From the NCBI GenBank assembly GCA_014687725.1, contig GCA_014687725.1_4094.1: a DNA stretch of 64,000 bases. The stretch is one strand, 5' to 3'. The DNA comes from a phage. Positions 32,671 to 45,816 of the stretch are shown here, one piece after another. Position numbers and translations under genes: made by a program. The notes under the pieces were generated by a model. The model did not search any database and was not told where the DNA came from. It saw only the letters and a list, made by a program, of their open reading frames with translations. How positions within the stretch are numbered: the first letter of the stretch is position 1; each line of letters starts with the position of its first letter.

Positions 32671-32754
32671 AGTACTTGATAATAGTTTTTAGTACTGTAT
32701 AATATTTTACATCGCAAGGGGGAGCGGTTCCCCCTGGTAACTAAGGATAATCAA

Positions 32755-33054: not shown

Positions 33055-33071
33055 TATAGTACTGAATCACT

Positions 33072-33100
33072 AGCCCACTATAAGAAGTGGGCTTTTTTTA
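33072..33100 (+). terminator. intrinsic terminator
   Basis: AGCCCACT-ataagaa-GTGGGCT + TTTTTTT. Confidence 0.65.
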
Positions 33101-33292
33101 TTGTAGTATTGTAGTACTGGTATACTTTGAAAATAGTTTTAAAAAAGTAGTTGACATTACCAGGGAAAAGCGTAGAATGTATTACATCAAGACGGGGAAC
33201 ACTAAGTAGACCGCCAGTAAGTCGAATGAAAAACTGGACACGTCAAACAAACTTTGATAAACTAACTTAAACTTTAATTGAGGATTTATAAA

Positions 33293-33775
33293 ATGGCTAA
33301 TGTAAAATCATTTCTGAAAGCACTGATTTCTAACGATACTGTTATTGCTGCTGAATTGCTGGCTGACCTGGATAATGATACCATGAAAGCAGTACGCAAC
33401 AATTTTAACATTGCTTACAGTGAAGCGAAAGAACTACAAGCCAAAAAGGTAGCAGAACTGGAAGAACAGAAAAAAGCCCGTGAAGCAGAACTGCAAGCAA
33501 CAATAGAAAGTATTCAGGCGGCGGTGTCTGGTTTAGATCTGGAAGTGGTTATTGAAATGGCACATAAAGCCCTGGCGGTTAAGTACGGTGAAGATAAGCC
33601 GGAATCTAAGCCTAAAAAATGGATTCAAGAACGTGTTACGGTTGTCCTTGATAACGGGGAAGAACATTTGATTCCTGTACGCGGTAACTGCATTGCGGTA
33701 GTACTGGATGCAATCAAAGAAAGCGGTATGACTCGCGAGGAATGGATCGAAGCTCACCGCAAAGTTGAAGCATAA
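33293..33775 (+). CDS. hypothetical protein (160 aa), coiled-coil-like central region
   Basis: Start moved to MANVKSF after GAGGA; K/E/A-rich heptad-like stretch. Confidence 0.55.
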   Translation: MANVKSFLKALISNDTVIAAELLADLDNDTMKAVRNNFNIAYSEAKELQAKKVAELEEQKKAREAELQATIESIQAAVSGLDLEVVIEMAHKALAVKYGEDKPESKPKKWIQERVTVVLDNGEEHLIPVRGNCIAVVLDAIKESGMTREEWIEAHRKVEA

Positions 33776-33796
33776 CAATTAAAGTACTGAATCACT

Positions 33797-33823
33797 AGCC
33801 CACTGTATAAGTGGGCTTTTTTG
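33797..33823 (+). terminator. intrinsic terminator
   Basis: AGCCCACT-gtata-AGTGGGCT + TTTTTT. Confidence 0.65.
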
Positions 33824-34059
33824 TGTTTATCGTTTACCAGGCCACCAGCACCGCCTAGAATCGATTCTAACGCATTAAACTGATTATCTGATGCATCGCC
33901 CTAGCTGGTGGCGTTAAGGTCGTTAGAATGCGATTGAGGACGTTTAAAGTATTTTGCAAAAAGTAATAAAAAGTACTTGCACGATTAAGAGATTAGCGTA
34001 TAATGTTTTACATCGAGAGGGGGAAACGGTTCTCCTTCCAAATCAAAGGAATCAAAACA

Positions 34060-34287
34060 ATGGCTATCGTAATCGCTTATGTAACTGGTACTACTGGCAC
34101 TTCTTCTACTGTTGCTGTAATTACCAACAAGAAAGGTGCGGAATTACATTCTGCAATGGATACCTGGGCGGTAAATGAGTTCGGTCAGTGGGCAAGTGTA
34201 GCATATGTTGAAACCTATCAAGTGCCAACCATTAGCTTAACGGATCTCGGTGTAGATCGTATCCTTTGCCTGGATGAATTAAATTAA
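34060..34287 (+). CDS. hypothetical early protein
   Basis: Start moved to MAIVIAY downstream of leader hairpin. Confidence 0.5.
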   Translation: MAIVIAYVTGTTGTSSTVAVITNKKGAELHSAMDTWAVNEFGQWASVAYVETYQVPTISLTDLGVDRILCLDELN

Positions 34288-34373
34288 AAAAGTACTTGCA
34301 AAGTAAATCAGATAAAGTATAATACATTACATCAAGGGGAGAAATGGTTCTCCCTGATAATGAGGAAACTAAT

Positions 34374-34517
34374 ATGAAAACTTGTCAATGTGGTAAAAAA
34401 TCTATTACTGGTTTAAAGCGGGGCGTTGCTCTTTGCCAGTACCATTATAATTTACAAGTATGGGGTAAAGAATGGGCCGACCAGGTGGAAGCAGCAAAGA
34501 AAGCAAAAAGTAAGTAA
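34374..34517 (+). CDS. small Cys-containing protein (47 aa)
   Basis: Below track cutoff; full promoter-hairpin-SD-ATG context; CQCG...C.YH pattern. Confidence 0.4.
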   Translation: MKTCQCGKKSITGLKRGVALCQYHYNLQVWGKEWADQVEAAKKAKSK

Positions 34518-34536
34518 AATTATTATCACAGTACTA

Positions 34537-34565
34537 TTGACATAGATTGATAGTACTGGCATAAT
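34537..34565 (+). promoter_or_regulatory. early promoter (type 2, AGTACT-flanked)
   Basis: cAGTACTaTTGACA, 17 nt, gatAGTACTGG-CATAAT; no 5' hairpin; recurs at ~34820, ~37690, ~37970, ~38500, ~45410. Confidence 0.5.
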
Positions 34566-34598
34566 AGATTTTATCAAGACAACTAAGAGGAAACAATA

Positions 34599-34811
34599 AT
34601 GGCTATCATCACAAAAATCAAAGTAAACAAATCACTGGTTAAGCTGGAAGAAGTGAAAGAAGGTTATAAAGTATCGTGGTGCGGCATGTATCGGATTTTT
34701 ACAGATGTTGACGATGCAATCAATTACTACACTGACACGGTAAAAAACTTTGTTCGTGCTGATGTGGTTATGGCAGTGGCAACACACAAAGCATCGAAAG
34801 AAAGTAAGTAA
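34599..34811 (+). CDS. hypothetical early protein, paralog of 37763-37942
   Basis: Both start MAII.K; type-2 promoter upstream. Confidence 0.55.
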   Translation: MAIITKIKVNKSLVKLEEVKEGYKVSWCGMYRIFTDVDDAINYYTDTVKNFVRADVVMAVATHKASKESK

Positions 34812-34892
34812 AAATATTATCACAGTACTATTGACATAGTTTGATAGTACTGGCATAATAGATTTTATCAAGACAACTAAGAGGAAATTAAA

Positions 34893-35237
34893 ATGGCTAA
34901 TATCAACACTATCGCAAAACAAAATATCAACCTGTCTTCTGTTGAAGTTGTACATATTGCCGCTCGGCGTTGGTTCCAGGCTTCATATGGTAACACTTAT
35001 TTCTCTTTAAGTGTAGACGTAGAAATTGATGGTAATTTTATTGAAGTAGTAAACGTGCCGTTCCAATATGGATACGGGGATCACTTTGACACTGTAGCAA
35101 TGGAAGAATTTAGCAAGGTTATTAATATGGAAGATAAAGAGTTTTTACGCGGTTCTTATCTTTCCCGTTTTTGCCGTGACAATAATATCACTGTTTACAG
35201 TTCGGTAACTGATGTTAAACGCAAAAAAGATCTTTAA
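34893..35237 (+). CDS. hypothetical protein, paralog of 41446-41769
   Basis: Shared W...GNTY.S..V and F.YGYG and ITVY..V.DVKRKKD blocks. Confidence 0.6.
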   Translation: MANINTIAKQNINLSSVEVVHIAARRWFQASYGNTYFSLSVDVEIDGNFIEVVNVPFQYGYGDHFDTVAMEEFSKVINMEDKEFLRGSYLSRFCRDNNITVYSSVTDVKRKKDL

Positions 35238-35317
35238 TTAGCTTTACTTTATGCAGATACTTTGATATAGTGTCTGCATAGGGGAAAGAAATTAAATTAA
35301 CTTAAGAGGATAGTATA

Positions 35318-35587
35318 ATGAAAAATATCAGTACTTTAATTGATGCAGGTACACATGTTCGGCGGTCTATGGTTGCAACCAGTACTACAAAACAAGTAGC
35401 GAGCGGTTATCTTGTATTTGTGCACGATGGTAAACTCCTGGAACGTTCAATCAATTTTGATGTTAAAAACAATTGCCGTTTTATTATCTTTAAGCGTGAA
35501 CAATATAAAATTGATTTACCAGCGAAGCCCATAAGCGGGGCGTATAACGTCTATTCATTGTTTGAGCGTCAACCATACACCTATTAA
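35318..35587 (+). CDS. hypothetical early protein
   Basis: ATG after AAGAGGA. Confidence 0.5.
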   Translation: MKNISTLIDAGTHVRRSMVATSTTKQVASGYLVFVHDGKLLERSINFDVKNNCRFIIFKREQYKIDLPAKPISGAYNVYSLFERQPYTY

Positions 35588-35638
35588 TCAAAACATCGTT
35601 AGCGGTCGATTTAGGCCGCTTATATTGGGGATTATACC

Positions 35639-35911
35639 ATGAACGTTAATCAAGTACTGAATGAGATCGAAAGCATCATTAAACCGATGAAGCGTACTGA
35701 TGCTATGTTAACACCGGAAGAATGCCGCCTTTATGAGCGTTACAGCGTCGAACAAGTCCAGGCAATGGCTATGGCTACGCCAGCCGTTAAACCGCCTGAG
35801 AATGCGTTACAGGACGTTACAGGGGATTATATCATCAATCCAGTACTAGGGAAGATGGCTGCAATCACCGAAGATCAACAAGACTACTTAAGCCAGTACT
35901 TAAAAGGTTAA
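35639..35911 (+). CDS. hypothetical early protein
   Basis: ATG start; operon with next gene. Confidence 0.5.
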   Translation: MNVNQVLNEIESIIKPMKRTDAMLTPEECRLYERYSVEQVQAMAMATPAVKPPENALQDVTGDYIINPVLGKMAAITEDQQDYLSQYLKG

Positions 35912-35916
35912 TTAAT

Positions 35917-36126
35917 ATGCTTACTGTACAGGATAAGATCGACATCTTAAAGGTTAATATGTATGTGATTGATGCAGTACCTGGTAAAGTATTTGCATAC
36001 GATGACACCACTGTAAGCGATTTCTACTATAGCCAGGACGTGGGGGATCTTTCTGTACAGTCGGTTATTGAAAACGTAGTTAATGCAGCGTATGAGCATT
36101 TACTTTCAAATAGTACTTGCAATTAG
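35917..36126 (+). CDS. hypothetical early protein
   Basis: 5-nt spacing after previous gene. Confidence 0.5.
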   Translation: MLTVQDKIDILKVNMYVIDAVPGKVFAYDDTTVSDFYYSQDVGDLSVQSVIENVVNAAYEHLLSNSTCN

Positions 36127-36195
36127 TTTTTAAACGCGTATAATGTTTTACATGAAGGGGAGAAATGATTCTCCCCACTAATTAAGGAATATGAA

Positions 36196-36342
36196 ATGAA
36201 AGCATCAAAAAAGAGTAATACTAAGAAAGCACGTTCACCTTTCGCTGGGGTATTCCCTTTACGTTTCGTTGATGAAGTGGTTTCCTACCCGCCTGGCCTT
36301 ACTCCTGAGATGGTAGAAAGTTTGCGTAAATCTAAAAAATAA
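36196..36342 (+). CDS. small basic protein (48 aa)
   Basis: Below track cutoff; promoter, GGGGAGAA-atga-TTCTCCCC hairpin, AAGGAAT SD. Confidence 0.4.
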   Translation: MKASKKSNTKKARSPFAGVFPLRFVDEVVSYPPGLTPEMVESLRKSKK

Positions 36343-36423
36343 TACTTGCAATTAGTTTTTAGTACTGTATAATAGTTTACATGAAGGGGAGAAATAGTTC
36401 TCCCCAATAACAGGAGAAACAAA

Positions 36424-36576
36424 ATGAAACAATATAATGCTCGGATGGATGTAACTATCGGTAACGGCAAAGGTCAATTCTCTTTCAGTACTCGCAAAAG
36501 TTATACAGAAAACTTCCTGCGTAATTGTGCACTGACCGCCGCACAAATTAAACATTACTTTCAGGCTAAAAAATGA
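36424..36576 (+). CDS. small protein (50 aa)
   Basis: Below track cutoff; same promoter/hairpin/SD context. Confidence 0.4.
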   Translation: MKQYNARMDVTIGNGKGQFSFSTRKSYTENFLRNCALTAAQIKHYFQAKK

Positions 36577-36662
36577 AATCATTAGCTTATTACAGTTCGG
36601 CCCTGGTCGGTGCATTGATCGCGGCATTGTTAGTAACCTATCTATTCTTTATGGTGATTTAA
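36573..36662 (+). CDS. very small hydrophobic peptide (29 aa)
   Basis: ATGA-coupled; single predicted TM helix; speculative. Confidence 0.25.
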   Translation: MKSLAYYSSALVGALIAALLVTYLFFMVI

Positions 36663-36800
36663 ATGAATCCTAACGGTTTAATTTACAGTACTCCTAAAAC
36701 GAAAGCAGATAAAGCGAAAGCACGTAAAGCGAAAGTAAAGGAGTACATCAAGCAAGGCATGACGCGAAAGGCGGCAATTCTAAAAGCTAAAAATAAATGA
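36663..36800 (+). CDS. small lysine-rich protein (45 aa)
   Basis: TAAATG coupling; followed by terminator/promoter hairpin. Confidence 0.35.
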   Translation: MNPNGLIYSTPKTKADKAKARKAKVKEYIKQGMTRKAAILKAKNK

Positions 36801-36810
36801 AAAAAAAAGT

Positions 36811-36840
36811 GGTTGACTTCGGTCAGCCATTTTGCTATTA
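36811..36840 (+). promoter_or_regulatory. terminator/promoter element (copy 4)
   Basis: GGTTGAC-TTCG-GTCAGCC hairpin, TTTT, TATTAT. Confidence 0.5.
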
Positions 36841-37024
36841 TGTATTCATTGAGAGATAGCTCACTAGCCCACAGGGTGCATAAGTGTATCTATTGTATAA
36901 TGATTGAGTACTGAAAACTATTTTAAAGTATTTGATAAAAAGTACTTGCATACTATCTCAATAGGCGTATAATGTTTTACATCGCAAGGGGAAACGGTTT
37001 CCCCTGGTAATAAGGAAACGAATC

Positions 37025-37366
37025 ATGACTATTGCAATTGCTCAATCTAACTTTGAAAACGAAATCATCGCTCAGGCACTGCGTTTAAATGATGGTCGGG
37101 CCGAAATCAATTACGGTTTCAATAGTGGTGGATGTGAAAAATATCAGTACTTTATAACTGCTGATGGCGGTGTCCTGGGCATCAATACCGTTATTGTAAA
37201 CATTCAGAAAATTAATTTCAATGATCCAGACGATAGCCAGTTTTACATCACGGGCGTAGACGTGAACTATGAGGATGACTCACTAACTGATGATCACACT
37301 GGTGAGAAGTTAGAAAGTGCATACGGTGAAGATGATTATCAGTCCGGTCCAGAAGATTTCGAATAA
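37025..37366 (+). CDS. hypothetical acidic protein
   Basis: Promoter + leader hairpin + AAGGAAACGAATCATG. Confidence 0.55.
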   Translation: MTIAIAQSNFENEIIAQALRLNDGRAEINYGFNSGGCEKYQYFITADGGVLGINTVIVNIQKINFNDPDDSQFYITGVDVNYEDDSLTDDHTGEKLESAYGEDDYQSGPEDFE

Positions 37367-37458
37367 TATTAAAAAATAGTTTGACAATAGTTTTTAGTAC
37401 TGTATAATAGTTTACATGAAGGGGAGAAATGATTCTCCCCACTAAGAGGAAAAACAAA

Positions 37459-37671
37459 ATGGCTAATATCCGCACTGTACTGAAAAATGCAAAACAAGTT
37501 TTATTTTCTGATCATGAAAATTTCAACAAGGATATCACAGGTGTTCGGAATATCAAAGATGTAAAAAGTGTTATGGGTATCTATTGCAATATGAAACGTG
37601 TTGGCACGTTCGGCGATAAAGTACTATACCAGGCAGGGGATTACAATTTTACACTGACTATCATTAACTAA
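37459..37671 (+). CDS. hypothetical early protein
   Basis: Start moved to MANIRTV after AAGAGGA. Confidence 0.55.
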   Translation: MANIRTVLKNAKQVLFSDHENFNKDITGVRNIKDVKSVMGIYCNMKRVGTFGDKVLYQAGDYNFTLTIIN

Positions 37672-37762
37672 AAATATTATCACAGTACTATTGACAACGT
37701 TTGATAGTACTGGCATAATAACTTTTATCAAGACAACGCATATTAATTTAAGGAATACTAAA

Positions 37763-37942
37763 ATGGCTATTATCGCAAAAACTGAAATCATCGGCCTGGA
37801 TTCTATCATCATGACGTTTGAAGATCAAAAAGGGATGTATGTAGTTTCCTATGGTGATTATGTTCGGGAGTATGAAACGGTAGACGAAGCCTTTGAAAGT
37901 TACATTCGCCAGGTGAATAAAGCATACGACGACTACCGCTAA
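37763..37942 (+). CDS. hypothetical early protein, paralog of 34599-34811
   Basis: Start moved to MAIIAKT; type-2 promoter upstream. Confidence 0.5.
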   Translation: MAIIAKTEIIGLDSIIMTFEDQKGMYVVSYGDYVREYETVDEAFESYIRQVNKAYDDYR

Positions 37943-38041
37943 AATATATTACCAGTACTATTAAATCTATTGACAATGATTGATAGTACAGTATAATAAG
38001 TTTTATAAACAGTAGTTAACTTAACCTAAGAGAGAAACAAA

Positions 38042-38185
38042 ATGATCGCACTGGATTCATTCATCGACGCAGTACTGGCAAAAACTGGCGAGGATCTGAC
38101 CGCAGAACAATACGCGATGATCGAGCAATGCCAGCAAAACGGTAAATCGGTGAAAGATACTGTTAAGATTATCCGCAAGATGTAA
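38042..38185 (+). CDS. small protein (47 aa)
   Basis: Below track cutoff; type-2 promoter, AAGAGAGAAA SD, terminator downstream. Confidence 0.4.
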   Translation: MIALDSFIDAVLAKTGEDLTAEQYAMIEQCQQNGKSVKDTVKIIRKM

Positions 38186-38191
38186 GAATAT

Positions 38192-38220
38192 AGCCCACTG
38201 GTTAACGCTGGTGGGCTTTA
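38192..38220 (+). terminator. intrinsic terminator containing a Chi octamer
   Basis: AGCCCAC-tggttaacgct-GGTGGGCT + TTT; GCTGGTGG at ~38207-38214. Confidence 0.45.
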
Positions 38221-38290
38221 ATCATTTACCCTATACAATGCCAGTACTAAACCGTTTAACTCGTTAGAATGCATTACAGGACGTTTAACA

Positions 38291-38488
38291 ATGATTAGCA
38301 TGAAATCAGTACAAAAACAAATTGATACATTATCAAAAATTAAACGTAAACAATACTCATTAGAATATACAATCAATGGTAACTATCATCTAATGAAAGA
38401 GAATAATTTCATAGTCATTGATGAATCATTGCAAGTTATTAGTATAGTACTGAAAGCATTAATCAATGACAGAAAAAAGTTAAAATAA
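38291..38488 (+). CDS. hypothetical AT-rich small protein
   Basis: Track ORF; weak start context. Confidence 0.35.
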   Translation: MISMKSVQKQIDTLSKIKRKQYSLEYTINGNYHLMKENNFIVIDESLQVISIVLKALINDRKKLK

Positions 38489-38589
38489 TCTATTGACAAA
38501 TTATGCCAGTACTGGCATAATACTTACATCAAGACGAGAACGTCACTAACCCATAGGGTGCACAAATGTAGCTGTCTAATATTGATCAA

Positions 38590-38640
38590 AAAATGATCTG
38601 ATCAATACTTGATCAATTTGCGTAAAGTAGTATAATTCTA
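38590..38640. repeat. cluster of TGATCA/GATC motifs
   Basis: tgatcaaaaaatgatctgatcaatacttgatcaa in a ~240-bp gene-free stretch. Confidence 0.4.
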
Positions 38641-38819
38641 TGCAGTTGGTTAGACGAAAGGTTATGATTAGTAGTGGAAGTGTATAAAAATTTTCATGGT
38701 GTGGTGATCCGCACATATGGGGATGAATATGTCGTGTCGTATGGATTGGAAAAAGTAAGAACAAGTAATATACTTGTCGCGTTACAGTACTATAGTATTT
38801 TTATAATGAGGTTAAAATA

Positions 38820-39077
38820 ATGGCTGTAGGATTCACGAAAGATGGGGCCGAGCAAGACGAGATTAACGCAGTGATTCAGGCCGCTGTTAACCACGCTAGA
38901 ACGCAAATTAACGCACAAATAGAATCACTGATACATTGCCTCGACTGCGGCGATATAATCCCTGAGAAACGACGCCAGGCCGTTAAGGGATGTAAGTACT
39001 GCATAACTTGCCAGGAGGATCATGATAGTACTTTTAAACGTCCCCCGCGTAATTGTTGGCATAGATCTATGAGATAA
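38820..39077 (+). CDS. TraR/DksA-family C4 zinc-finger protein
   Basis: CLDCGDIIPEKRRQAVKGCKYCITCQ: CxxC-17-CxxC spacing typical of TraR/DksA. Confidence 0.7.
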   Translation: MAVGFTKDGAEQDEINAVIQAAVNHARTQINAQIESLIHCLDCGDIIPEKRRQAVKGCKYCITCQEDHDSTFKRPPRNCWHRSMR

Positions 39078-39140
39078 AAAGTATTGACAGTACTGAAAGA
39101 TAGTGTATAATATTTTATATCTTAACTGAGGATTGAAATC

Positions 39141-39497
39141 ATGGGAATACAACATATCACGCGTACTACTGACAATGGCGAGATCACTGGCTATCAAGTA
39201 CAGGGCAAAGTAGCACAATTGCAGTACTGGTTTGTTAAACGTGGAATCATTGCACCGGATCTTGATTATGACCGTGTAGCGTTTATTGATTCTCTTTATG
39301 TTGATCCTGATAGTCGGGGCAATGGTGAAGGTAACGAATTAATGAATGCCTTTATTGATGCCGCCGATGATTCAGATTGTATCATTTTAGAATGCGATAC
39401 GGGAGAAGATAACGCCTTTAATCTTAAAGAATGGTACGAAGGTTTCGGATTCGAGGTACTGATCGATAGTGAATATCCTATCATGATTTTATCATAG
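39141..39497 (+). CDS. GNAT-like N-acetyltransferase (small)
   Basis: VAFIDSLYVDPDSRGNGEGNELMNAF ... NAFNLKEWYEGFGF resembles GNAT motifs A/B. Confidence 0.5.
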   Translation: MGIQHITRTTDNGEITGYQVQGKVAQLQYWFVKRGIIAPDLDYDRVAFIDSLYVDPDSRGNGEGNELMNAFIDAADDSDCIILECDTGEDNAFNLKEWYEGFGFEVLIDSEYPIMILS

Positions 39498-39575
39498 TAC
39501 TTGCATTTAGTTTTCAGTACTGTTATAGTACTTACATCAAGGGGAAACATCTTCCCCTACTAAGAGGAAATAAAA

Positions 39576-39764
39576 ATGGAAAACTTATCAAGTATTTTAG
39601 TACAAGATGATTTCGGTAATCCTGGAAGTGCTATCATTGTTCGGGGTAATAAAGCAACATTTGTTATTGCTGGTGGACCTGTACAGCGTAGCATTAAAAA
39701 TAATGCTGTTACCATTAATAATGTACGCTATCGCTTAGATAAAGAATTGATTCATAAACTTTAA
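39576..39764 (+). CDS. hypothetical early protein
   Basis: Promoter + hairpin + AAGAGGAAATAAAAATG. Confidence 0.5.
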   Translation: MENLSSILVQDDFGNPGSAIIVRGNKATFVIAGGPVQRSIKNNAVTINNVRYRLDKELIHKL

Positions 39765-39848
39765 AAAGTATTTGACAATAGATTATAGTACTGTATAATA
39801 AGTTACATGAAGGGGTGAAATGATTCTCCCCACTAAGAGGAAAGAAAA

Positions 39849-40061
39849 ATGCAAGGTCAACTAATCGTTCGTAAATGGTCTGATACTAACGAAAAACCGT
39901 GGGATGTACAATACATCGGACCGGATGGGGTATCACGTTATCAGCCTGGCGTAACGCATAGTACTGAGCAATTCGCAAACGCTCACCGCGAACGCCTGTT
40001 AGAATCCATGAAACAGGGATTCTGTGAAAAATTCATTCAAGATCATTGGCTGAAAGATTAA
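39849..40061 (+). CDS. hypothetical early protein
   Basis: Promoter + hairpin + SD. Confidence 0.55.
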   Translation: MQGQLIVRKWSDTNEKPWDVQYIGPDGVSRYQPGVTHSTEQFANAHRERLLESMKQGFCEKFIQDHWLKD

Positions 40062-40078
40062 TATAAGGAGTACAGCTT

Positions 40079-40171
40079 ATGCAAATGAATCCGATGATTA
40101 TTGTTTTAGCTGTACTTATGATCATTCATGCAATAGTAGAAGTATTAACGCAATCAGGAGTAATAAAATGA
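40079..40171 (+). CDS. very small hydrophobic peptide (30 aa)
   Basis: AAGGAG 8 nt upstream; ATGA-coupled to next ORF; speculative. Confidence 0.3.
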   Translation: MQMNPMIIVLAVLMIIHAIVEVLTQSGVIK

Positions 40172-40341
40172 TTCAAGTAGAATTATCAGTACTGAAAGAT
40201 CTGTTTTATCGGTTAGGTACTACTGGCGAGTATCCTAAAAGTGATACCGCAAAACTTTTTGTATCACTCGACTTATGGCAACGCGAACAATTAGTAATGT
40301 CCTGGCGTAAAGGTAAAGCAGATAGCGAGGTGAAAGCATGA
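40168..40341 (+). CDS. small protein (57 aa)
   Basis: Below track cutoff; ATGA coupling both sides. Confidence 0.4.
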   Translation: MIQVELSVLKDLFYRLGTTGEYPKSDTAKLFVSLDLWQREQLVMSWRKGKADSEVKA

Positions 40342-40487
40342 AAGAATTCTTATTCGAAGTAGTGTTTCAAGGTGTCGGTAGTAACCAACTGATTCGCTCA
40401 AGTGGTTACAATGTTAACCAGGCATGGAATAACATTAAACAAATGTACCCGAACGCTATCACCTATCGCAACCCGAAACAAGTTTAA
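40338..40487 (+). CDS. small protein (49 aa)
   Basis: Below track cutoff; followed by terminator/promoter hairpin. Confidence 0.4.
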   Translation: MKEFLFEVVFQGVGSNQLIRSSGYNVNQAWNNIKQMYPNAITYRNPKQV

Positions 40488-40501
40488 AAATAATTGAAAA
40501 A

Positions 40502-40534
40502 GGGATTGACTCCGGTCAGTCCCTTTGCTATTAT
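40502..40534 (+). promoter_or_regulatory. terminator/promoter element (copy 5)
   Basis: GGGATTGAC-TCCG-GTCAGTCCC, TTTG, TTGACT/17 nt/TATTAT. Confidence 0.55.
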
Positions 40535-40635
40535 ATACGCATAGAAACAAATCAGCCCACAGGGTGCATAAATGTATCTATTGTTTGCTGGTGGCTAGTA
40601 CTATCAAGTACTGAAAACTATTTTTAAAAAAGTAC

Positions 40636-40663
40636 TTGCATTGTACTTAGAATCAAGTATAAT
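40636..40663 (+). promoter_or_regulatory. early promoter P1 of tandem pair
   Basis: TTGCAT, 16 nt, TATAAT; upstream A/T-rich tract and TCAGTACTGA. Confidence 0.5.
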
Positions 40664-40751
40664 GTTTTACATCAGGACGGGGAACGAAACAAGTAACCCC
40701 GTTAAGTAGTCCAGGAGTAAGACATAAGAAAACCTCCCCTGATAAAATAGT

Positions 40752-40779
40752 TTGACAATAGAAAGTAAACGAGTATAAT
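40752..40779 (+). promoter_or_regulatory. early promoter P2 of tandem pair
   Basis: TTGACA, 16 nt, TATAAT; separated from P1 by a ~60-nt structured leader, duplicated at 30360-30560. Confidence 0.5.
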
Positions 40780-40812
40780 ACTTACATCAACCACTGATAA
40801 GGAAACATTAAA

Positions 40813-41088
40813 ATGCGGATTCTACTGACAGCTAACGAAATCGAACAAGTACTGACTACTAACCTGGAAGACTGGAAACGTGAAGCAGATATCCAGGCGG
40901 TTCAACGGCTTAACGATGAGTTAACGCCGGATGACTTAAGCAAGATTGTAGATCCTCAATTCTACGAAGATATCCACGACACCGCGTTAAGCGTCGAGGA
41001 TGTACTAGATAAGCACTACATTGATATTGATTTGCAGGTTTACGGTCGTAAAAACTTTATCACTATTCACGACATTTACAATAATTAA
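40813..41088 (+). CDS. hypothetical acidic protein
   Basis: ATG after AAGGAAACATTAAA. Confidence 0.55.
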   Translation: MRILLTANEIEQVLTTNLEDWKREADIQAVQRLNDELTPDDLSKIVDPQFYEDIHDTALSVEDVLDKHYIDIDLQVYGRKNFITIHDIYNN

Positions 41089-41174
41089 GTATTGACAAAG
41101 TATCTTAGTACTGTATAATAGTTTACATCGAGAGGGGGAATGGTTCCCCTCCTAACAAAGAGAGAGAAATAAAA

Positions 41175-41357
41175 ATGGCTAAATGCACTATCTGTAAGAA
41201 AGAAATCGTATTAGTTCCAAGTGCCCGTGAACGTGCCGCTCGGTTCGGTGGCAAACCGTCAGACTATACAAAAATGTTTACTGTCCATGCAGCTTGCCAG
41301 GTAGCAAAACGTTCACAAGAAAGCGTAGAATTAATGCGTAAACTTTCCAAAAAATAA
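41175..41357 (+). CDS. hypothetical small protein
   Basis: Promoter + hairpin + GAGAGAGAAATAAAAATG. Confidence 0.5.
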   Translation: MAKCTICKKEIVLVPSARERAARFGGKPSDYTKMFTVHAACQVAKRSQESVELMRKLSKK

Positions 41358-41445
41358 GTATTGACAAAGTATCTTAGTACTGTATAATAGTTTACATCAA
41401 GTGAGGGGAAACGGTTCCCCTCCTAACAAAGAGAGAGAAATAAAA

Positions 41446-41769
41446 ATGGCTATGATCCTTGCCCAGAAAGTAGAACTGAAAATTGTAACCTCCTTTGACA
41501 TTAAAGTTAATCGGTGGACTGATTCACACGGCAATACTTACCACTCTTGCTACGTGTCTGCGTTAATTGGTGATCGTTGGGAAGACCTGGGACATGAAAC
41601 CTTTACATACGGTTACGGCACACAAGGCGAATACACGGGCTTGGAGATCATTAAAGAAACCGTTATAGGTTTCAACCCGAAAGAAACAGTTATTCACCGC
41701 ATCGAGGAAGAGATCAACAAAGAAATAACAGTTCGATACTACGATGTAAAACGTAAGAAAGATATGTAA
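41446..41769 (+). CDS. hypothetical protein, paralog of 34893-35237
   Basis: Start moved to MAMILAQ; duplicated promoter/leader with 41175 gene. Confidence 0.55.
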   Translation: MAMILAQKVELKIVTSFDIKVNRWTDSHGNTYHSCYVSALIGDRWEDLGHETFTYGYGTQGEYTGLEIIKETVIGFNPKETVIHRIEEEINKEITVRYYDVKRKKDM

Positions 41770-41864
41770 TAGAATCCATTTAAAGTACTATTTGACATTG
41801 CCCAGATAGTACTTTATAATAGACTCTAACTTGTAGTACTAACTCAACTAATAGGATGTATACC

Positions 41865-42260
41865 ATGATTACTAAATTCTACGCTACCCGTGAAGCTGCC
41901 CGTATTGTTGCACGCGAGGAAGGAGCAGCATTTAAAGACATGGGCAAAGATGCACCGAAAGGCCAACGCTGGGCCGTACAGTTCAAAGAGATCTCTGATA
42001 TTGTGAATTCACCTGAGCCAGTACTAACAGCAGCAGAACTAAAACGAGCGGATTTACTGGCGTCAATACTTGATGCACAAGATGAGTTTATCGCTGATTC
42101 TGATATCAAAGTACAGACAAACCATACCGCTTGGACTCACGCGGATCACCTGGCAAACCTGAAGCGTCCAAGTGAACTGGTACGCAACCAGAAAGAGATC
42201 CGACACGACCGTAAGGGTAATCGTGTAACAGTATACAGTAAACGCCGCCAGGTTATCTAA
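41865..42260 (+). CDS. hypothetical protein, paralog of 29549-29815
   Basis: Start moved to second ATG (AGGA upstream). Confidence 0.55.
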   Translation: MITKFYATREAARIVAREEGAAFKDMGKDAPKGQRWAVQFKEISDIVNSPEPVLTAAELKRADLLASILDAQDEFIADSDIKVQTNHTAWTHADHLANLKRPSELVRNQKEIRHDRKGNRVTVYSKRRQVI

Positions 42261-42282
42261 TAACTTGCAGTACTAACAACAC

Positions 42283-42307
42283 GGCGGGATCAGTTCCCGC
42301 CTTTTTT
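42283..42307 (+). terminator. intrinsic terminator
   Basis: GGCGGGA-tcagt-TCCCGCC + TTTTTT. Confidence 0.65.
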
Positions 42308-42321
42308 ATAGGACAAACAAA

Positions 42322-42576
42322 ATGATTAAGGTTCAACTATATAAAGATAATATCTTGCGGGTACACTATAAAGCCCCTCAGAGAATCATCACAAAGGCCG
42401 TACAGCTTGCTAATGAGTTTATTAATGGTAACCTATTACCAAGGAAGTTAAGCAACGGAAAACTGCGTGTAATCGATGTAGACACTAACAACAGAATAGT
42501 AATTGAGAACACAGGAAAGATAAACCTATATGAACACCAACAATATAATAAGAAAATAAAACTAATATCACGTTGA
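42322..42576 (+). CDS. hypothetical protein
   Basis: ATG after GGACAAACAAA. Confidence 0.5.
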   Translation: MIKVQLYKDNILRVHYKAPQRIITKAVQLANEFINGNLLPRKLSNGKLRVIDVDTNNRIVIENTGKINLYEHQQYNKKIKLISR

Positions 42577-42629
42577 CAGTACTCAATTGTTTTAGTACTA
42601 TGTACATATACCAACACGGGAGAAACAAA

Positions 42630-42848
42630 ATGAAATTATCTAAAATCGAAAAGAAAACTATTGATGAAGCAGTTAAGCACGGTTATACCTTTCGTAATGA
42701 TTCACATTTTACCAATTTTCAACAAGGGTATCGTACTATTAAAAAACTCATTGACAAAGGTTTATTAGTTGAAGTCAATAACGGCAATGGTATTGAGTAT
42801 CAACCAACACAAGACGCATTTTATTTTAAGAAATATAATATTATCTAA
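42630..42848 (+). CDS. hypothetical protein, tandem duplicate pair member
   Basis: Promoter TTGACA/17/TACTAT and leader duplicated at 42849-42905. Confidence 0.5.
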   Translation: MKLSKIEKKTIDEAVKHGYTFRNDSHFTNFQQGYRTIKKLIDKGLLVEVNNGNGIEYQPTQDAFYFKKYNII

Positions 42849-42905
42849 TTGACAGTACTCAAATGTTTTAGTACTATATGTACATACCAACACGGGGAAA
42901 ACAAA

Positions 42906-43148
42906 ATGATTACTTTAGAAAAACGTATCAAAGAAACTACATCGCTGGTGGAACTGTTAACAGTACTGAAATGCCGTACTACTCGGTTTAGTACACCGGA
43001 CTTTATTAATATGGTTGATGTTAACGGTCGTTATCGCATTGCAGTAGAACAAGGAACAGCGAAAGTATTCAGTACTAAAAACACTAAGGAAGTGATTCAT
43101 GCTGTAAGTGTTAAAAAAGTAGTTGCCATTGATAGTAAAGTACTGTAA
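42906..43148 (+). CDS. hypothetical protein, tandem duplicate pair member
   Basis: Same promoter/leader as previous gene. Confidence 0.5.
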   Translation: MITLEKRIKETTSLVELLTVLKCRTTRFSTPDFINMVDVNGRYRIAVEQGTAKVFSTKNTKEVIHAVSVKKVVAIDSKVL

Positions 43149-43179
43149 GATAGTTTCATTAACTCAAGGAGAACATGCA

Positions 43180-43764
43180 ATGCGTAATTATACTAAATTC
43201 ATCCGTACCCTGTCAGAAATGGAAACCAACAAAGAGATCCTTTCAGCTTGTCGGTTAGCTGGTCTGGAGATCATCGGTGCGGGTTCTTCCCGTATTGTAT
43301 TCGCTTTAAATGATCGGTTAGTGATCAAGGTCGCGAATTGTGATGCGGGTGTAGAACAAAATGAAACTGAATGTAAGGTATGGAATTTTTTAGATTATGA
43401 CCGCCCTCAATTGAAACAGTACTTTGCAAAGGTGCATATGCATTTATGCGATCCTGATAATATGTTTATCGTTATGGATCGGTTGAGTACTGCAAGTAAA
43501 GGCAGTGTAAAGCACGTAAACGCGTGCAATGAATTAAAGTACAATATTAAACGTAATGCCATTGAACGCCAGCACCGCTTTGCTGATGCACTACAACACG
43601 TTGATGATACATTATCAACACTAACGATAAGAGATATCAGAAAACAGAATATCGGCCAGGATCGTAATGGCCTTATTAAAGTACTTGATTACGGTTTAAC
43701 CCGCAATATCTGGAATCAGTACTATAAAAAGCGTGATGTAGAAGCAAGTAAGGTAACACGATAA
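43180..43764 (+). CDS. protein-kinase-like protein (atypical Ser/Thr kinase fold)
   Basis: IIGAGSSRIVF (Gly-rich loop), LVIKV (beta3 Lys), RDIRKQNIG (catalytic loop), KVLDYG (DFG-like); AAGGAG SD. Confidence 0.55.
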   Translation: MRNYTKFIRTLSEMETNKEILSACRLAGLEIIGAGSSRIVFALNDRLVIKVANCDAGVEQNETECKVWNFLDYDRPQLKQYFAKVHMHLCDPDNMFIVMDRLSTASKGSVKHVNACNELKYNIKRNAIERQHRFADALQHVDDTLSTLTIRDIRKQNIGQDRNGLIKVLDYGLTRNIWNQYYKKRDVEASKVTR

Positions 43765-43777
43765 AAAAGATTAAAAA

Positions 43778-43812
43778 AGGGATTGACTCCGGTCAGTCCC
43801 TTTGCTATTATA
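43778..43812 (+). promoter_or_regulatory. terminator/promoter element (copy 6)
   Basis: GGGATTGACTCCGGTCAGTCCC + TTTGCTATTAT. Confidence 0.55.
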
Positions 43813-43984
43813 TATTCATTGAGAGATAACTCACTGACCCATAGGGTGCGGAAGTGTATCTATTATATAAGTATTCAGTACTGAAAACTATTTTAAAAAA
43901 GTACTTGCAATGTACTTAGAATCAAGTATAATGTTTTACATAGAGAGGGGGAAATGGTTCTCCCTGGTAATAAGGAATAAAATC

Positions 43985-44206
43985 ATGACTACAATGACTT
44001 GCATTTACGCTTCCAATCTTCTGAATGATGCGGCCTTTAATGTTGATTCAGAATATCAATGTTATCGGGATGAAAATAAAAAAGTTTTTGTAGTTGATAA
44101 TAATGGTTTCCATATTGAATTACAATCCGGTTTCACTGGTGTTGATGGTAAATCAGTGTGGGGCGTACAGGATGATAAAGGCACATATCATTTTAAACGT
44201 AATTAA
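43985..44206 (+). CDS. hypothetical early protein
   Basis: Start moved to MTTMTC downstream of leader hairpin. Confidence 0.5.
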   Translation: MTTMTCIYASNLLNDAAFNVDSEYQCYRDENKKVFVVDNNGFHIELQSGFTGVDGKSVWGVQDDKGTYHFKRN

Positions 44207-44290
44207 GTATTGACAAAGTATATCAGTACTGTATAATAGTTTACATCAAGGGGAGAATAGTTCTCCCCGATACTAAAAGGAAACAAAATT

Positions 44291-44563
44291 ATGTCCAGCT
44301 ACTCCGCTACTATGATCATTAAAGATATGAACGGTAATCCTACTTCTGCTGGTGGATCATTTGGAAACATTAATTTAGATGGTCGGTTATCCATGCAATC
44401 AGCCATCGATGCAGCGAAAGAAGTTTTTAAGAATGAATGTACTGTTAGTAAGCTGGATTATATGGGATTCGCTATCGAGAAAACTAATCGTTTTGTGAAC
44501 TACAAAAATCCACTGATGATTGATACTAACCTGAAAGCTAACGAAGTGGGGTACTTATTATGA
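44291..44563 (+). CDS. hypothetical early protein
   Basis: Promoter + hairpin + AAAGGAAACAAAATTATG. Confidence 0.55.
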   Translation: MSSYSATMIIKDMNGNPTSAGGSFGNINLDGRLSMQSAIDAAKEVFKNECTVSKLDYMGFAIEKTNRFVNYKNPLMIDTNLKANEVGYLL

Positions 44564-44751
44564 CAGTAGAAGAAGTTAAAAAAGTACTGGCAGTACTACG
44601 CTATCATAATCATTGCAAGGTGAAGAATGATCCTGATTATGTTGATTCATCCCTGGAGGAAGACACATTAAACGCAATAAGCCATATGCAAACATTAGCA
44701 AAGCGTATGACCGAAAAGAATAGACCGGACTATATCGGAAATAAAATTTAA
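44560..44751 (+). CDS. hypothetical early protein
   Basis: ATGA overlap with previous. Confidence 0.5.
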   Translation: MTVEEVKKVLAVLRYHNHCKVKNDPDYVDSSLEEDTLNAISHMQTLAKRMTEKNRPDYIGNKI

Positions 44752-44837
44752 AAAGTACTTGCATTGTAGTTAGATTAACGTATAATGTTTTACATAGAGC
44801 GGGGGAACTATTCCCCCGCCAGTCCAGGAGATACACC

Positions 44838-45101
44838 ATGAACACTATCGAAATCACTATCAATGCACACGTATACGACAACGTAGTACTGCAAACTACT
44901 ATGACCGCTAATGATACCAGTACTTTGCGGAATACTGTTATTAGTGCCGTATGTGCCGCTATCGGTGATGTCGCCCTGGAAAATGCAGAACACATCAACA
45001 ACGGTTTCACTATGTGCAAACGTGATAACGCAAAACATATCATCGTAGAAGGTTACGGCGGTGTAGAATATAATCTTTATATGAAAAAAGTACTTGCATA
45101 A
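44838..45101 (+). CDS. hypothetical early protein
   Basis: Promoter + GCGGGGGAA-cta-TTCCCCCGC hairpin + AGGAG. Confidence 0.55.
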   Translation: MNTIEITINAHVYDNVVLQTTMTANDTSTLRNTVISAVCAAIGDVALENAEHINNGFTMCKRDNAKHIIVEGYGGVEYNLYMKKVLA

Positions 45102-45168
45102 TAACTAAAACAAAGTATAATGTTTTGCATAGGGGGAGATATCCTCCCCCACTAAAAGGAGTAATAAA

Positions 45169-45393
45169 ATGGCTAACTTTGATGAACTGATGCGGGAAGT
45201 AGCTAACCTGGCAGAAGAGAAGAAATCATTCGATTCTATCTATAACACCGCTCACCGTGATTCAGTACTGGCATGTACTCAGGATCAAAAAGATGAACTA
45301 ATCGCCACATATCATGAAGCATGGAAGTACTACCGCCAATGGGAGAAAGAAGAAAGCGAGTCTACCATCAACGGCATCAATAATCTAATCTAA
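45169..45393 (+). CDS. hypothetical early protein
   Basis: Promoter + hairpin + AAAGGAGTAATAAAATG. Confidence 0.55.
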   Translation: MANFDELMREVANLAEEKKSFDSIYNTAHRDSVLACTQDQKDELIATYHEAWKYYRQWEKEESESTINGINNLI

Positions 45394-45469
45394 AAGTTTT
45401 ATTTCAGTACTATTGACATAGCTTGATAGTACTGATGTAATAACTTTACTAACTACAAGGGGAAACATA

Positions 45470-45727: not shown

Positions 45728-45816
45728 AACTATTTGACAGTACTAACCAGTAATGTATAATGTTTTACATAGAGCGGGGGAATAGTTCTCCCGCCAATAG
45801 TTTGGAGTAAAACATT

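What the first reader, a model, noticed from the sequence alone, without database searches (positions are those of the whole stretch)
38820..39497. Putative host-takeover pair: TraR/DksA-type zinc finger followed by a GNAT-like acetyltransferase
38820-39077 has the CxxC-17-CxxC zinc ribbon of TraR/DksA proteins, which bind the RNA polymerase secondary channel. The next gene (39141-39497) has GNAT-like motifs. Together with the two kinase-like proteins this suggests layered modification of host transcription/translation early in infection.
Basis: partly seen in the sequence, partly recalled or inferred. Interest (0 to 1): 0.45.

Follow-up and report, generated by a model that had tools for sequence, protein, structure and literature searches.

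The report
Two unlinked early phage genes
Two neighbouring early genes of a giant E. coli phage do encode a TraR/DksA-type zinc-finger protein and a very small acetyltransferase, as public records already annotate, but they are independent genes rather than a working pair, because the acetyltransferase sits on a small cassette that many sister phages lack.

Summary

The window is an Asteriusvirus jumbo phage (121Q/PBECO4 group). GenBank records already annotate these genes as 'DksA-like zinc-finger protein' and 'acetyltransferase'. In relatives they lie in the ~21 kb direct terminal repeat, an array of small genes with consensus sigma-70 promoters.

The 'pair' reading is not supported:
- ORF2 has its own perfect promoter.
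- A 418-bp promoter-to-promoter cassette holding ORF2 is precisely absent from 12 of 35 sister records.
- The same cassette occurs without ORF1 in an unrelated 146-kb phage.
- ORF1 relatives occur in about 950 phage records; the three loci outside the genus that I examined have no homologue of this GNAT nearby.

ORF1 lacks TraR's literal DxxDxA motif. It has an invariant D8xxE11 and a conserved N-terminal extension instead. It most likely acts on RNA polymerase, but this is untested. The GNAT's target is unknown. Overall an ordinary finding, with modest open questions.

The parts
38584..38614 (.). Cluster of four GATC sites (two as TTGATCAA) that covers the -35 element of the ORF1 promoter and the sequence upstream of it
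   Evidence: Densest GATC cluster in the 64 kb window: 4 sites in 31 bp against 1.9 per kb overall. Its function is not tested.
38609..38636 (+). Promoter-like site TTGATC-16-TATAAT that probably drives the small upstream ORF and ORF1
   Evidence: 10 of 12 matches to the sigma-70 consensus. It is identical in Salmonella phage SD-1_S14.
38674..38820 (+). 48-aa ORF (GTG start) whose stop overlaps the ORF1 start (TAATG), which suggests translational coupling
   Evidence: The frame is open and the protein is conserved, despite DNA divergence, in SD-1_S14 and vB_Ec-M-J. It is not homologous to the ORFs upstream of ORF1 homologues in T4-like phages.
38820..39077 (+). ORF1: 85-aa YbiI/TraR-like C4 zinc-ribbon protein
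   Evidence: Pfam PF01258 E 1.6e-10. PDB matches: YbiI 2KGO E 7e-12 and TraR 2e-5. The AlphaFold model has helix 7-29, a Zn ribbon and helix 62-71 and superposes on RNAP-bound TraR with TM 0.65-0.71.
39084..39111 (+). Perfect sigma-70 consensus promoter (TTGACA-16-TATAAT) for ORF2, in the ORF1-ORF2 spacer
   Evidence: 12 of 12 matches. No terminator-like site was found between ORF1 and ORF2.
39094..39511 (+). 418-bp presence/absence cassette that carries ORF2, bounded inside two promoters
   Evidence: Precisely absent in SD-1_S14, where a hybrid promoter remains. It is absent in 12 of 35 sister records. It is present at 91% DNA identity in the unrelated phage SF1-1.
39141..39497 (+). ORF2: 118-aa acidic mini-GNAT N-acetyltransferase
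39501..39557 (+). Weaker promoter-like element (TTGCAT-17-TATAGT) plus the leader stem-loop GGGGAAACATCTTCCCC of the next gene (39576-39764)
   Evidence: Read from the sequence. Its -10 half forms the right end of the cassette junction. The same leader is present in SF1-1.

Best explanation
These are two independent accessory early genes of an Asteriusvirus jumbo phage. They lie in an array of about 50-60 small genes that host sigma-70 RNA polymerase can transcribe. In relatives this array is the ~21 kb direct terminal repeat.

ORF1 is a member of the YbiI-like branch of the TraR/DksA zinc-ribbon family. It most likely binds E. coli RNA polymerase as follows (inferred from homology and model):
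- the zinc domain sits on the beta' rim helices, using the invariant R51/R52 that match TraR R48/R49;
- the N-terminal helix inserts into the secondary channel, placing D8/E11 and a conserved N-terminal extension near the active site;
- this would shift initiation away from promoters with unstable open complexes (rRNA, ribosomal proteins) towards the phage's own strong promoters.

ORF2 is a complete, highly acidic minimal GNAT. It lacks the usual N-terminal beta1-alpha1-alpha2 arm. It most likely transfers acetyl from acetyl-CoA to an amine of a basic host protein or a polyamine-like molecule. It travels on a 418-bp promoter-bounded cassette that is gained and lost by recombination between early promoters. 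Its adjacency to ORF1 is therefore incidental.

Shown here: gene structure, family membership, folds, promoters, and the cassette polymorphism and its mobility. Inferred: RNA polymerase binding, early timing, and the acetylation substrate.
For: Identity and context:
- The window is 90-97% identical to Asteriusvirus genomes, which carry the same annotations.
- A direct terminal repeat of 20,993 bp was confirmed by restriction digests in fEgEco12 (PMC13070987). The pair sits at 11.5-12.4 kb of that record (H99).
- There are 12 perfect TTGACA-N16/17-TATAAT sites, all on the + strand between 27408 and 45734, against 0.07 expected.

ORF1:
- Pfam, PHROG and PDB matches.
- C40/C43/C61/C64 and R51/R52 are invariant.
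- The model superposes on RNAP-bound TraR at rmsd 2.7-2.8 A.
- An ungapped BLASTP alignment to lambda Orf73 (offset 5) places D8/E11/D13 opposite lambda D3/D6/A8.
- TraR and five phage homologues bind RNAP and inhibit rRNA and ribosomal-protein promoters (PMC9239242).
- YbiI was reported to rescue a dksA mutant at high expression, data not shown (PMC2613031).

ORF2:
- GNAT Pfam hits and motif A.
- A family of about 290 mini-GNATs, with G64, W98 and Y99 invariant.
- pI 4.05.

Independence of the two genes:
- ORF2 has its own promoter.
- Precise cassette absence in sister phages.
- The cassette occurs in SF1-1 without ORF1.
- No co-occurrence outside the genus.
Against: - No experiment exists on this ORF1 subfamily.
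- The literal DxxDxA motif is absent. MAFFT and HMMER registers to TraR put D8/E11 two or more residues out of register with TraR D3/D6.
- The protein scores below the NCBIfam cut-offs of both the YbiI equivalog (79.7 against 96) and the TraR subfamily (52.2 against 59.7).
[quoted passage not shown] The extra conserved N-terminal residues therefore cannot be accommodated in the same way.
- The ORF1 model has only moderate confidence (pLDDT 71). The conserved C-terminal tail is unmodelled.
- No terminator separates ORF1 from ORF2, so some co-transcription is possible.
- Early timing is inferred from promoters and position only.
- The GNAT substrate is entirely inferred.
Confidence: 0.6

Rival explanations
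1. One reading: ORF1 and ORF2 are a co-evolved functional pair that together remodel host transcription and translation, as part of a layered program with phage kinases.
For: The two genes are adjacent on the same strand, 63 bp apart, with no terminator between them. They are contiguous in 23 sister records. Among the array genes I scanned against Pfam (10 larger ORFs plus these two), they are the only ones with a match above threshold.
Against: - There is a separate perfect promoter for ORF2.
- A 418-bp cassette with ORF2 is precisely absent in 12 of 35 records that keep ORF1.
- The ORF2 cassette occurs without ORF1 in SF1-1 and related Klebsiella phages.
- About 950 phage records hold ORF1 relatives, against 25 with this GNAT.
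- Only one weak, sub-threshold kinase match was found.
Confidence: 0.07
2. ORF1 keeps the TraR/YbiI fold but does not regulate RNA polymerase as TraR does. It either blocks the active site outright through its extended N-terminus, or it acts on a different target altogether.
For: - No literal DxxDxA motif.
- Nearly invariant N-terminal MAVGFxK and C-terminal FKRxPRNCWHRSMR sequences that TraR lacks.
- Scores below the cut-offs of both curated NCBIfam models.
- The literature notes that some C4 zinc-finger family members lacking the motif and the C-terminal helix are inactive (PMC9239242).
- The function of YbiI itself is unsettled.
Against: - R51/R52 match TraR's RNAP-contacting R48/R49.
- The three-element fold superposes on RNAP-bound TraR.
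- Acidic D8/E11 are in register with lambda Orf73 D3/D6.
- Homologues with an imperfect motif (P2 Orf82, Gp34) still worked.
- YbiI was reported to complement a dksA mutant.
Confidence: 0.3
3. ORF2 is a counter-defence enzyme of the AcrVA5 kind. It would be a minimal acetyltransferase that inactivates a host immunity protein by acetylating a key lysine.
For: - AcrVA5 acetylates Cas12a and Cas2 lysines (PMC11021501).
- ORF2 is an accessory cassette with patchy distribution that transfers between unrelated phages.
- Family members occur as modules fused to PARP, ParB_N and amidoligase domains.
- It sits in an array of genes with sigma-70 consensus promoters (inferred early).
Against: - The family profile gives only generic GNATs against PDB sequences. 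AcrVA5 is not among the 60 best.
- No target is known.
- From my own knowledge, E. coli does not carry Cas12a.
- The absence of a PADLOC hit says nothing either way.
Confidence: 0.2
4. ORF2 acetylates a small molecule (a polyamine, aminoglycoside-like or antibiotic-like amine) rather than a protein.
For: Weak sequence matches to AAC(3)-XI, phosphinothricin, arsinothricin and streptothricin acetyltransferases. The very acidic surface (pI 4.05) suits cationic small molecules. One GenBank record names the gene 'PaiA acetyltransferase'.
Against: All those matches are far below the family cut-offs. N-terminal and ribosomal-protein acetyltransferases match equally well. The substrate-binding N-terminal arm used by many small-molecule GNATs is missing.
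Confidence: 0.2
5. ORF2 is a toxin-like GNAT (AtaT/TacT type) that acetylates aminoacyl-tRNA to shut off host translation.
For: AtaT chains appear among the Foldseek matches (E about 2e-3, TM about 0.5).
Against: A net charge of -16 at 118 aa makes tRNA binding unlikely. The matches are weaker than many generic GNATs. ORF2 is about 60 residues shorter than the AtaT chains matched by Foldseek (168-180 residues).
Confidence: 0.03

Closest known systems
E. coli YbiI (PDB 2KGO; NCBIfam NF008243, DksA/TraR family C4-type zinc finger protein)
   Same: Best sequence and fold match: phmmer E 7e-12 over the full length and Foldseek E 4e-5. It shares the N-terminal MA-G-[FW]..D.A.Q..I pattern, the C4 ribbon and the RR pair.
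   Different: ORF1 scores 79.7 bits, below the equivalog cut-off of 96. YbiI-type proteins have V at position 11 where the phage group has an invariant E. They end in GYNRRGSKDSQLR rather than RNCWHRSMR. The function of YbiI is itself unresolved.
F-plasmid TraR and phage TraR homologues such as lambda Orf73 (PDB 5W1S, 6N57)
   Same: The same three-element architecture: N-terminal helix, Zn globular domain, C-terminal helix, with TM 0.65-0.71 to RNAP-bound TraR. CxxC-17-CxxC is shared. R51/R52 equal TraR R48/R49. ORF1 is 46% identical to lambda Orf73 over 46 residues. It is also a small protein of a mobile element of Proteobacteria.
   Different: DxxDxA is replaced by D8-G-A-E11-Q-x. A nearly invariant N-terminal extension of 5 to 7 residues is present. 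The C-terminal helix is shorter and is followed by a conserved basic tail containing Cys and His. ORF1 is below the TIGR02419 cut-off. It belongs to a strictly lytic jumbo phage rather than a temperate phage or plasmid.
AcrVA5 (PDB 6IUF), the anti-CRISPR mini-acetyltransferase of Moraxella prophages
   Different: No detectable relationship at the sequence-profile level. There is no known target for ORF2. ORF2 has an extra helix (residues 24-33) after the first hairpin.
Uncharacterised small bacterial GNATs 1Y9W (Bacillus cereus) and 2G3A (Agrobacterium)
   Different: 16-20% identity. Their function is unknown, so they give no functional lead.
PeSL (promoter-early stem-loop) cassettes of T4-type phages
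   Same: A single small gene is flanked by early promoters and leader stem-loops. The insertion/deletion end points lie inside the promoters, and the cassette is shared between different phages. The concept comes from PMC2839356 and PMC4122927.
   Different: It is seen here in an Asteriusvirus terminal repeat and in a 146-kb myovirus, with their own promoter and leader consensus. I did not compare the sequences with the T4-type PeSL consensus.

Membership tests
TraR/DksA C4 zinc-finger family (Pfam PF01258) | CxxC-x17-CxxC zinc ribbon, with a profile score above the gathering threshold | tested here: met
   C40/C43/C61/C64 are invariant in 43 homologues. PF01258 scores 41.2 bits against 24.9, E 1.6e-10.
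TraR subfamily (functional TraR-like regulators; TIGR02419) | Curated subfamily score cut-off | tested here: not met
   TIGR02419 scores 52.2 bits, below the cut-off of 59.7. The TraR equivalog NF010268 scores 29.2, below 108.
TraR subfamily (functional TraR-like regulators) | DxxDxA motif at the tip of the N-terminal helix | tested here: inconclusive
   The literal motif is absent. MAFFT aligns TraR D3/D6/A8 to V3/T6/D8. Extrapolating the ungapped BLASTP alignment to lambda Orf73 (offset 5) places the invariant D8/E11 and the variable D13 opposite lambda D3/D6/A8. Homologues with incomplete motifs retained reduced activity (PMC9239242).
TraR subfamily (functional TraR-like regulators) | Arg pair that contacts the beta' rim helices and beta' Si3 (TraR R48, R49) | tested here: met
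   R51 and R52 are invariant and align to TraR R48/R49 within IPExRR. Their role comes from PMC9239242.
TraR subfamily (functional TraR-like regulators) | C-terminal helix that contacts beta lobe-Si1 | tested here: inconclusive
   The model has a helix at 62-71 only. It is followed by a Pro-containing conserved tail that is modelled at low confidence (pLDDT 50-58). TraR's helix spans residues 58-73 (PMC6970531).
TraR subfamily (functional TraR-like regulators) | Binds the RNA polymerase secondary channel and changes initiation without ppGpp | not testable with these tools
   This needs biochemistry or a complex structure. Only fold superposition on RNAP-bound TraR is available.
YbiI equivalog (NCBIfam NF008243) | Curated equivalog score cut-off | tested here: not met
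   79.7 bits, below the cut-off of 96, although this is the best-scoring model.
GNAT (GCN5-related N-acetyltransferase) superfamily | Profile match above the gathering thresholds | tested here: met
   PF00583 37.2/20.7, PF13508 33.5/27, PF13673 26.3/23.6.
GNAT superfamily | Motif A, (R/Q)-x-x-G-x-(G/A), the acetyl-CoA pyrophosphate-binding loop | tested here: met
   R59-G-N-G62-E-G64. G64 is invariant, and R59 and G62 are at least 90% conserved, across 43 family members.
GNAT superfamily | GNAT fold core (beta4-alpha3-beta5-alpha4-beta6) | tested here: met
GNAT superfamily (canonical full-length form) | N-terminal beta1-alpha1-alpha2 arm | tested here: not met
   Only profile positions 53-116 of 116 are matched. 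The model starts with a beta hairpin (2-21) and one helix (24-33) before beta4. ORF2 is therefore a minimal GNAT. It is not a truncated gene, because about 290 relatives of 118-140 aa share the layout.
GNAT superfamily | Acetyl transfer from acetyl-CoA to an amine | not testable with these tools
   Needs an enzyme assay.
AcrVA5-type anti-CRISPR acetyltransferases | Sequence-level homology to AcrVA5 | tested here: not met
   A profile of 43 family members searched against all PDB sequences lists only generic GNATs in the best 60. AcrVA5 is not among them. The similarity is structural only.
AcrVA5-type anti-CRISPR acetyltransferases | Inactivates a host immunity protein by lysine acetylation | not testable with these tools
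   Needs plating assays and an acetylome.
PeSL-like mobile early-gene cassette | A gene bounded by early promoters and stem-loops, with insertion/deletion end points inside them | tested here: met
   The deletion end points lie at the -35 of the ORF2 promoter and in the spacer of the next promoter. There are 12 records without and 23 with the cassette. The same cassette is bounded by the same promoter type in SF1-1.

The most novel reading that the evidence does not exclude
Two readings are not excluded.
(a) The acidic mini-GNAT is a mobile counter-defence or host-shutoff protein acetyltransferase, working like AcrVA5 but against an unknown E. coli target. It would be exchanged between unrelated coliphages as a promoter-bounded cassette.
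(b) The phage YbiI-like proteins, found in Asteriusvirus and many T4-like phages, use their invariant N-terminal extension (MAVGFxKDGAEQ) and C-terminal RNCWHRSMR tail to act on RNA polymerase in a way distinct from TraR. For example, they might occupy the active site or NTP site rather than act allosterically.
Probability: 0.15. Interest if true: 0.6.

Novelty: new member of a known kind. Interest (0 to 1): 0.25.

Why it matters
Little changes if the main reading holds. Phage TraR homologues that retune host RNA polymerase are already described (PMC9239242), and phage GNATs are commonly annotated. Three modest points are of value.
1. The result corrects an attractive but unsupported 'operon-like pair' story. 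The acetyltransferase is a mobile single-gene cassette.
2. It flags a widespread phage branch of the TraR/YbiI family, present in Asteriusvirus and many T4-like phages. Its tip motif and termini differ from the studied TraR proteins, so it is worth one biochemical test.
3. Natural phages with and without the cassette (121Q-type and PBECO4-type) offer a ready-made experiment for finding the target of a minimal acetyltransferase.

Tried and rejected
- PADLOC models: no hit for either protein.
- NCBIfam: no specific family for the GNAT. All matches (RimI, ArsN, AAC, Sat) are far below their cut-offs.
- Word-indexed homologue search for the GNAT gave only 2 hits, then 7 with an alignment query. 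The exhaustive phmmer search was needed to see the family.
- A family profile against PDB sequences did not recover AcrVA5, so I rejected filing ORF2 as an Acr family member.
- Fusion partners of remote GNAT relatives (Amidoligase_2, PARP plus ParB_N, DUF5661) are suggestive of conflict systems. They are too distant to transfer a function.
- I tested whether the true conserved partner of ORF1 is the overlapping upstream ORF. T4-like phages also have a TAATG-overlapping upstream ORF, but it is not homologous to the one here. Rejected.
- I looked for a second copy or paralogue of either gene in the window and found none.
- A literature search for YbiI was swamped by ytterbium(II) chemistry. Only the 2009 remark was useful.
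- A Pfam scan of ten larger ORFs of the array, looking for the 'kinase-like' partners, gave only one sub-threshold Pkinase match.
- The tRNA-acetylating toxin idea was rejected on charge and size.

Full report
**Observation.** ORF1 contains C40-L-D-C43, then 17 residues, then C61-I-T-C64. This is not a chance pattern:
- Pfam zf-dskA_traR scores 41.2 bits (cut-off 24.9, E 1.6e-10).
- PHROG 54 'DksA-like zinc-finger protein' gives E 1.3e-18.
- The four cysteines are invariant in 43 homologues.

ORF2 passes three GNAT Pfam models above threshold and carries the acetyl-CoA loop R59-G-N-G62-E-G64.

**Where the window comes from.** The region is 90-97% identical to Asteriusvirus jumbo phages of E. 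coli (SHEFM2K, SP27, 121Q, phAPEC6 and others). Many of those records already annotate these genes as 'DksA-like zinc-finger protein' / 'TraR/DksA C4-type zinc finger protein' and 'acetyltransferase' / 'GNAT family N-acetyltransferase'.
- In vB_Ec-M-J the pair lies inside an annotated 21.5 kb direct terminal repeat.
- In fEgEco12 a 20,993-bp terminal repeat was confirmed by restriction digests (PMC13070987). The pair sits at about 11.5-12.4 kb of that record.
- The surrounding array consists of small + strand genes. Twelve perfect TTGACA-N16/17-TATAAT sites lie on the + strand between 27408 and 45734, against 0.07 expected, and eight of them fall between 36000 and 42500.
- A related Rak2-like phage paper had already proposed that such promoter-rich arrays of short ORFs are early host-takeover genes (PMC5259590).

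Early expression by host RNA polymerase is therefore a reasonable inference, but I have no transcript data.

**ORF1.**
- Relatives:
  - The best solved relative is the E. coli chromosomal protein YbiI (2KGO, E 7e-12, full length), ahead of F-plasmid TraR (E 2e-5).
  - NCBIfam ranks the YbiI equivalog first (79.7 bits) and the TraR subfamily second (52.2 bits). Both are below their cut-offs of 96 and 59.7.
  - Close homologues (62-73% identity) are in T4-like phages (Moon, JS10, RZ, MHG19, fHe-Yen9-01).
  - tblastn finds relatives in 956 phage records, including lambda.
- Model:
  - An AlphaFold model built on 43 sequences (pLDDT 71) has helix 7-29, a zinc ribbon, helix 49-54 and helix 62-71.
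  - It superposes on RNA-polymerase-bound TraR with rmsd 2.7-2.8 A and TM 0.65-0.71 normalised to TraR.
- Literature criteria for TraR-like function are the DxxDxA tip, R48 (rim helices), R49 (beta' Si3) and the C-terminal helix (beta Si1) (PMC9239242; PMC6970531).
  - R51/R52 are invariant and align to R48/R49.
  - The literal DxxDxA is absent. The subfamily has a nearly invariant MAVGFxKDGAEQ.
  - MAFFT aligns TraR D3/D6 to V3/T6. The ungapped BLASTP alignment to lambda Orf73 has offset 5, which would put D8/E11/D13 opposite lambda D3/D6/A8. I regard this criterion as inconclusive.
  - If the lambda register is right, five to seven conserved residues precede the acidic tip. TraR's residue 2 is already 4.3 A from the catalytic Mg, so the geometry at the active site must differ.
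  - The C-terminus also differs. A short helix is followed by a nearly invariant FKRxPRNCWHRSMR tail, where the YbiI group has GYNRRGSKDSQLR.
- YbiI was reported, as data not shown, to rescue dksA auxotrophy when over-expressed (PMC2613031).

I conclude that ORF1 is a member of the TraR/DksA family in its YbiI-like branch. It probably works on RNA polymerase, with details that may differ from TraR.

**ORF2.**
- Only the C-terminal half of the GNAT profiles is matched (positions 53-116 of 116). This raised the possibility of a truncated gene. That is not the case:
  - An exhaustive phmmer search finds 290 relatives, mostly 118-140 aa, that align end to end.
  - They share G64, W98 and Y99 (invariant) and R59, G62, D86 and E89 (at least 90% conserved).
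  - The AlphaFold model is confident (pLDDT 90.7). It has a beta hairpin (2-21), a helix (24-33) and then the canonical beta4-alpha3-beta5-alpha4-beta6-beta7.
- The AcrVA5 similarity is structural only. The family profile recovers only generic GNATs from PDB sequences, and NCBIfam gives nothing near a cut-off.
- The protein is very acidic (pI 4.05, net charge -16). This argues against nucleic-acid substrates such as tRNA and for cationic substrates such as basic proteins or polyamines.
- Some remote relatives are modules of large proteins with Amidoligase_2, PARP plus ParB_N, or DUF5661 domains.
- The target cannot be determined with these tools.

**Is it a pair?** No, on four counts.
1. A perfect promoter (39084-39111) lies between the genes. 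ORF1 instead follows, with a TAATG overlap, a conserved 48-aa ORF served by a different promoter at 38609-38636.
2. In Salmonella phage SD-1_S14, ORF1 is 97.6% identical but ORF2 is precisely missing. The gap runs from the -35 region of the ORF2 promoter (39094) to the spacer of the next promoter (39511) and leaves a hybrid promoter.
3. Across the phage collection, 23 records have ORF1-ORF2-next gene contiguous. Twelve have ORF1 followed directly by the next gene: four Salmonella phages, PBECO4, slurp01, BF17, G17, Sharanji and others.
4. The two genes occur separately elsewhere.
   - The ORF2 cassette is found at 91% DNA identity, from its -10 element to its stop codon, in the unrelated 146-kb Shigella phage SF1-1. 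ORF1 is not nearby, and the cassette is followed by a promoter almost identical to the window's ORF2 promoter.
   - More distant ORF2 homologues in Klebsiella phages and a metagenomic contig also lack an ORF1 neighbour.
   - ORF1 homologues in JS10, a Klebsiella T4-like phage and lambda lack a GNAT neighbour.

This behaviour matches the promoter-bounded single-gene cassettes (PeSLs) described for T4-type phages (PMC2839356, PMC4122927). Between the window and vB_Ec-M-J, the ORF2 DNA is 99.2% identical while its flanks are 72-94% identical. That is consistent with recent exchange or strong constraint.

**The 'two kinase-like proteins'.** Among ten larger ORFs of the array, only 43123-43764 gives a weak, sub-threshold Pkinase match (E 0.003). 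The layered-modification narrative therefore rests on little.

**Verdict.** Both genes are already annotated as such in public records, so I rate them as new members of known kinds. The residual interest lies in three things:
- the deviant tip and termini of the phage YbiI-like branch;
- the unknown target of a mobile, acidic mini-acetyltransferase that resembles AcrVA5 in shape;
- the promoter-mediated cassette exchange in the terminal repeat.

Noticed in passing
window 27408-45734, + strand: Twelve perfect TTGACA-N16/17-TATAAT promoters, against 0.07 expected. Most share an extended consensus (spacer ending AGTACTG, then TATAAT, then AGTTTACATCAA). Many are followed by a short stem-loop and a constant leader ...ACTAAGAGGAAA-N-ATG (for example 39541-39575 and 37420-37452). 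This looks like a phage-specific early promoter/leader module, analogous to the PeSLs of T4-type phages.
   Followed up: partly
window 39094-39511; L002 (SD-1_S14) about 2775-2790; L011 (SF1-1) 2500-2990: The ORF2 cassette end points lie inside two early promoters. The deletion form carries a hybrid promoter (the -35 of one, the -10 of the next). In the unrelated phage SF1-1, the promoter downstream of the cassette is nearly identical to the window's upstream ORF2 promoter. This suggests promoter-promoter recombination across phage lineages.
   Followed up: yes
window 38584-38614: Four GATC sites in 31 bp, two of them as TTGATCAA. This is the densest GATC cluster in the 64 kb window, and it covers the -35 element of the ORF1 promoter and the sequence upstream. 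It could be an operator, or a Dam/SeqA-sensitive control of ORF1 expression.
   Followed up: no
window 38674-38820 and 37691-37942: The 48-aa ORF that overlaps the ORF1 start shares a 'YVVSYG' motif with the 83-aa ORF at 37691-37942. It is conserved at the protein level in relatives despite about 72% DNA identity. It is absent from the vB_Ec-M-J annotation and called only as a 29-codon fragment in SD-1_S14. It may belong to a small paralogous family.
   Followed up: partly
window 39032-39077 (ORF1 residues 72-85): The C-terminal tail FKRxPRNCWHRSMR is nearly invariant from Asteriusvirus to T4-like phages. A separate PHROG of unknown function (phrog_25948) matches it. T4-like phage TH58 matches only this piece (H83). 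Its role is unknown.
   Followed up: no
L008 (JS10) 2819-3258; L009 (kv_tblp8) about 2960-3258: In T4-like phages the ORF1 homologue lies in the tk-nrdC variable region. There too it is preceded by an unrelated small ORF whose stop overlaps its start (TAATG). Translational coupling to an upstream ORF therefore seems to be a recurrent feature of this gene.
   Followed up: partly
window 43123-43764: A 213-aa ORF with a weak, sub-threshold protein-kinase match (Pkinase E 0.003, 17.5 bits against a cut-off of 31.7). I did not examine it further.
   Followed up: no
Escherichia phage CMSTMSU (MH494197.1 120963-121313): The ORF2 homologue there matches in three pieces, and the deposited protein is an 80-aa truncated form. 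The cause is either a frameshifted pseudogene or sequencing errors in that record.
   Followed up: no
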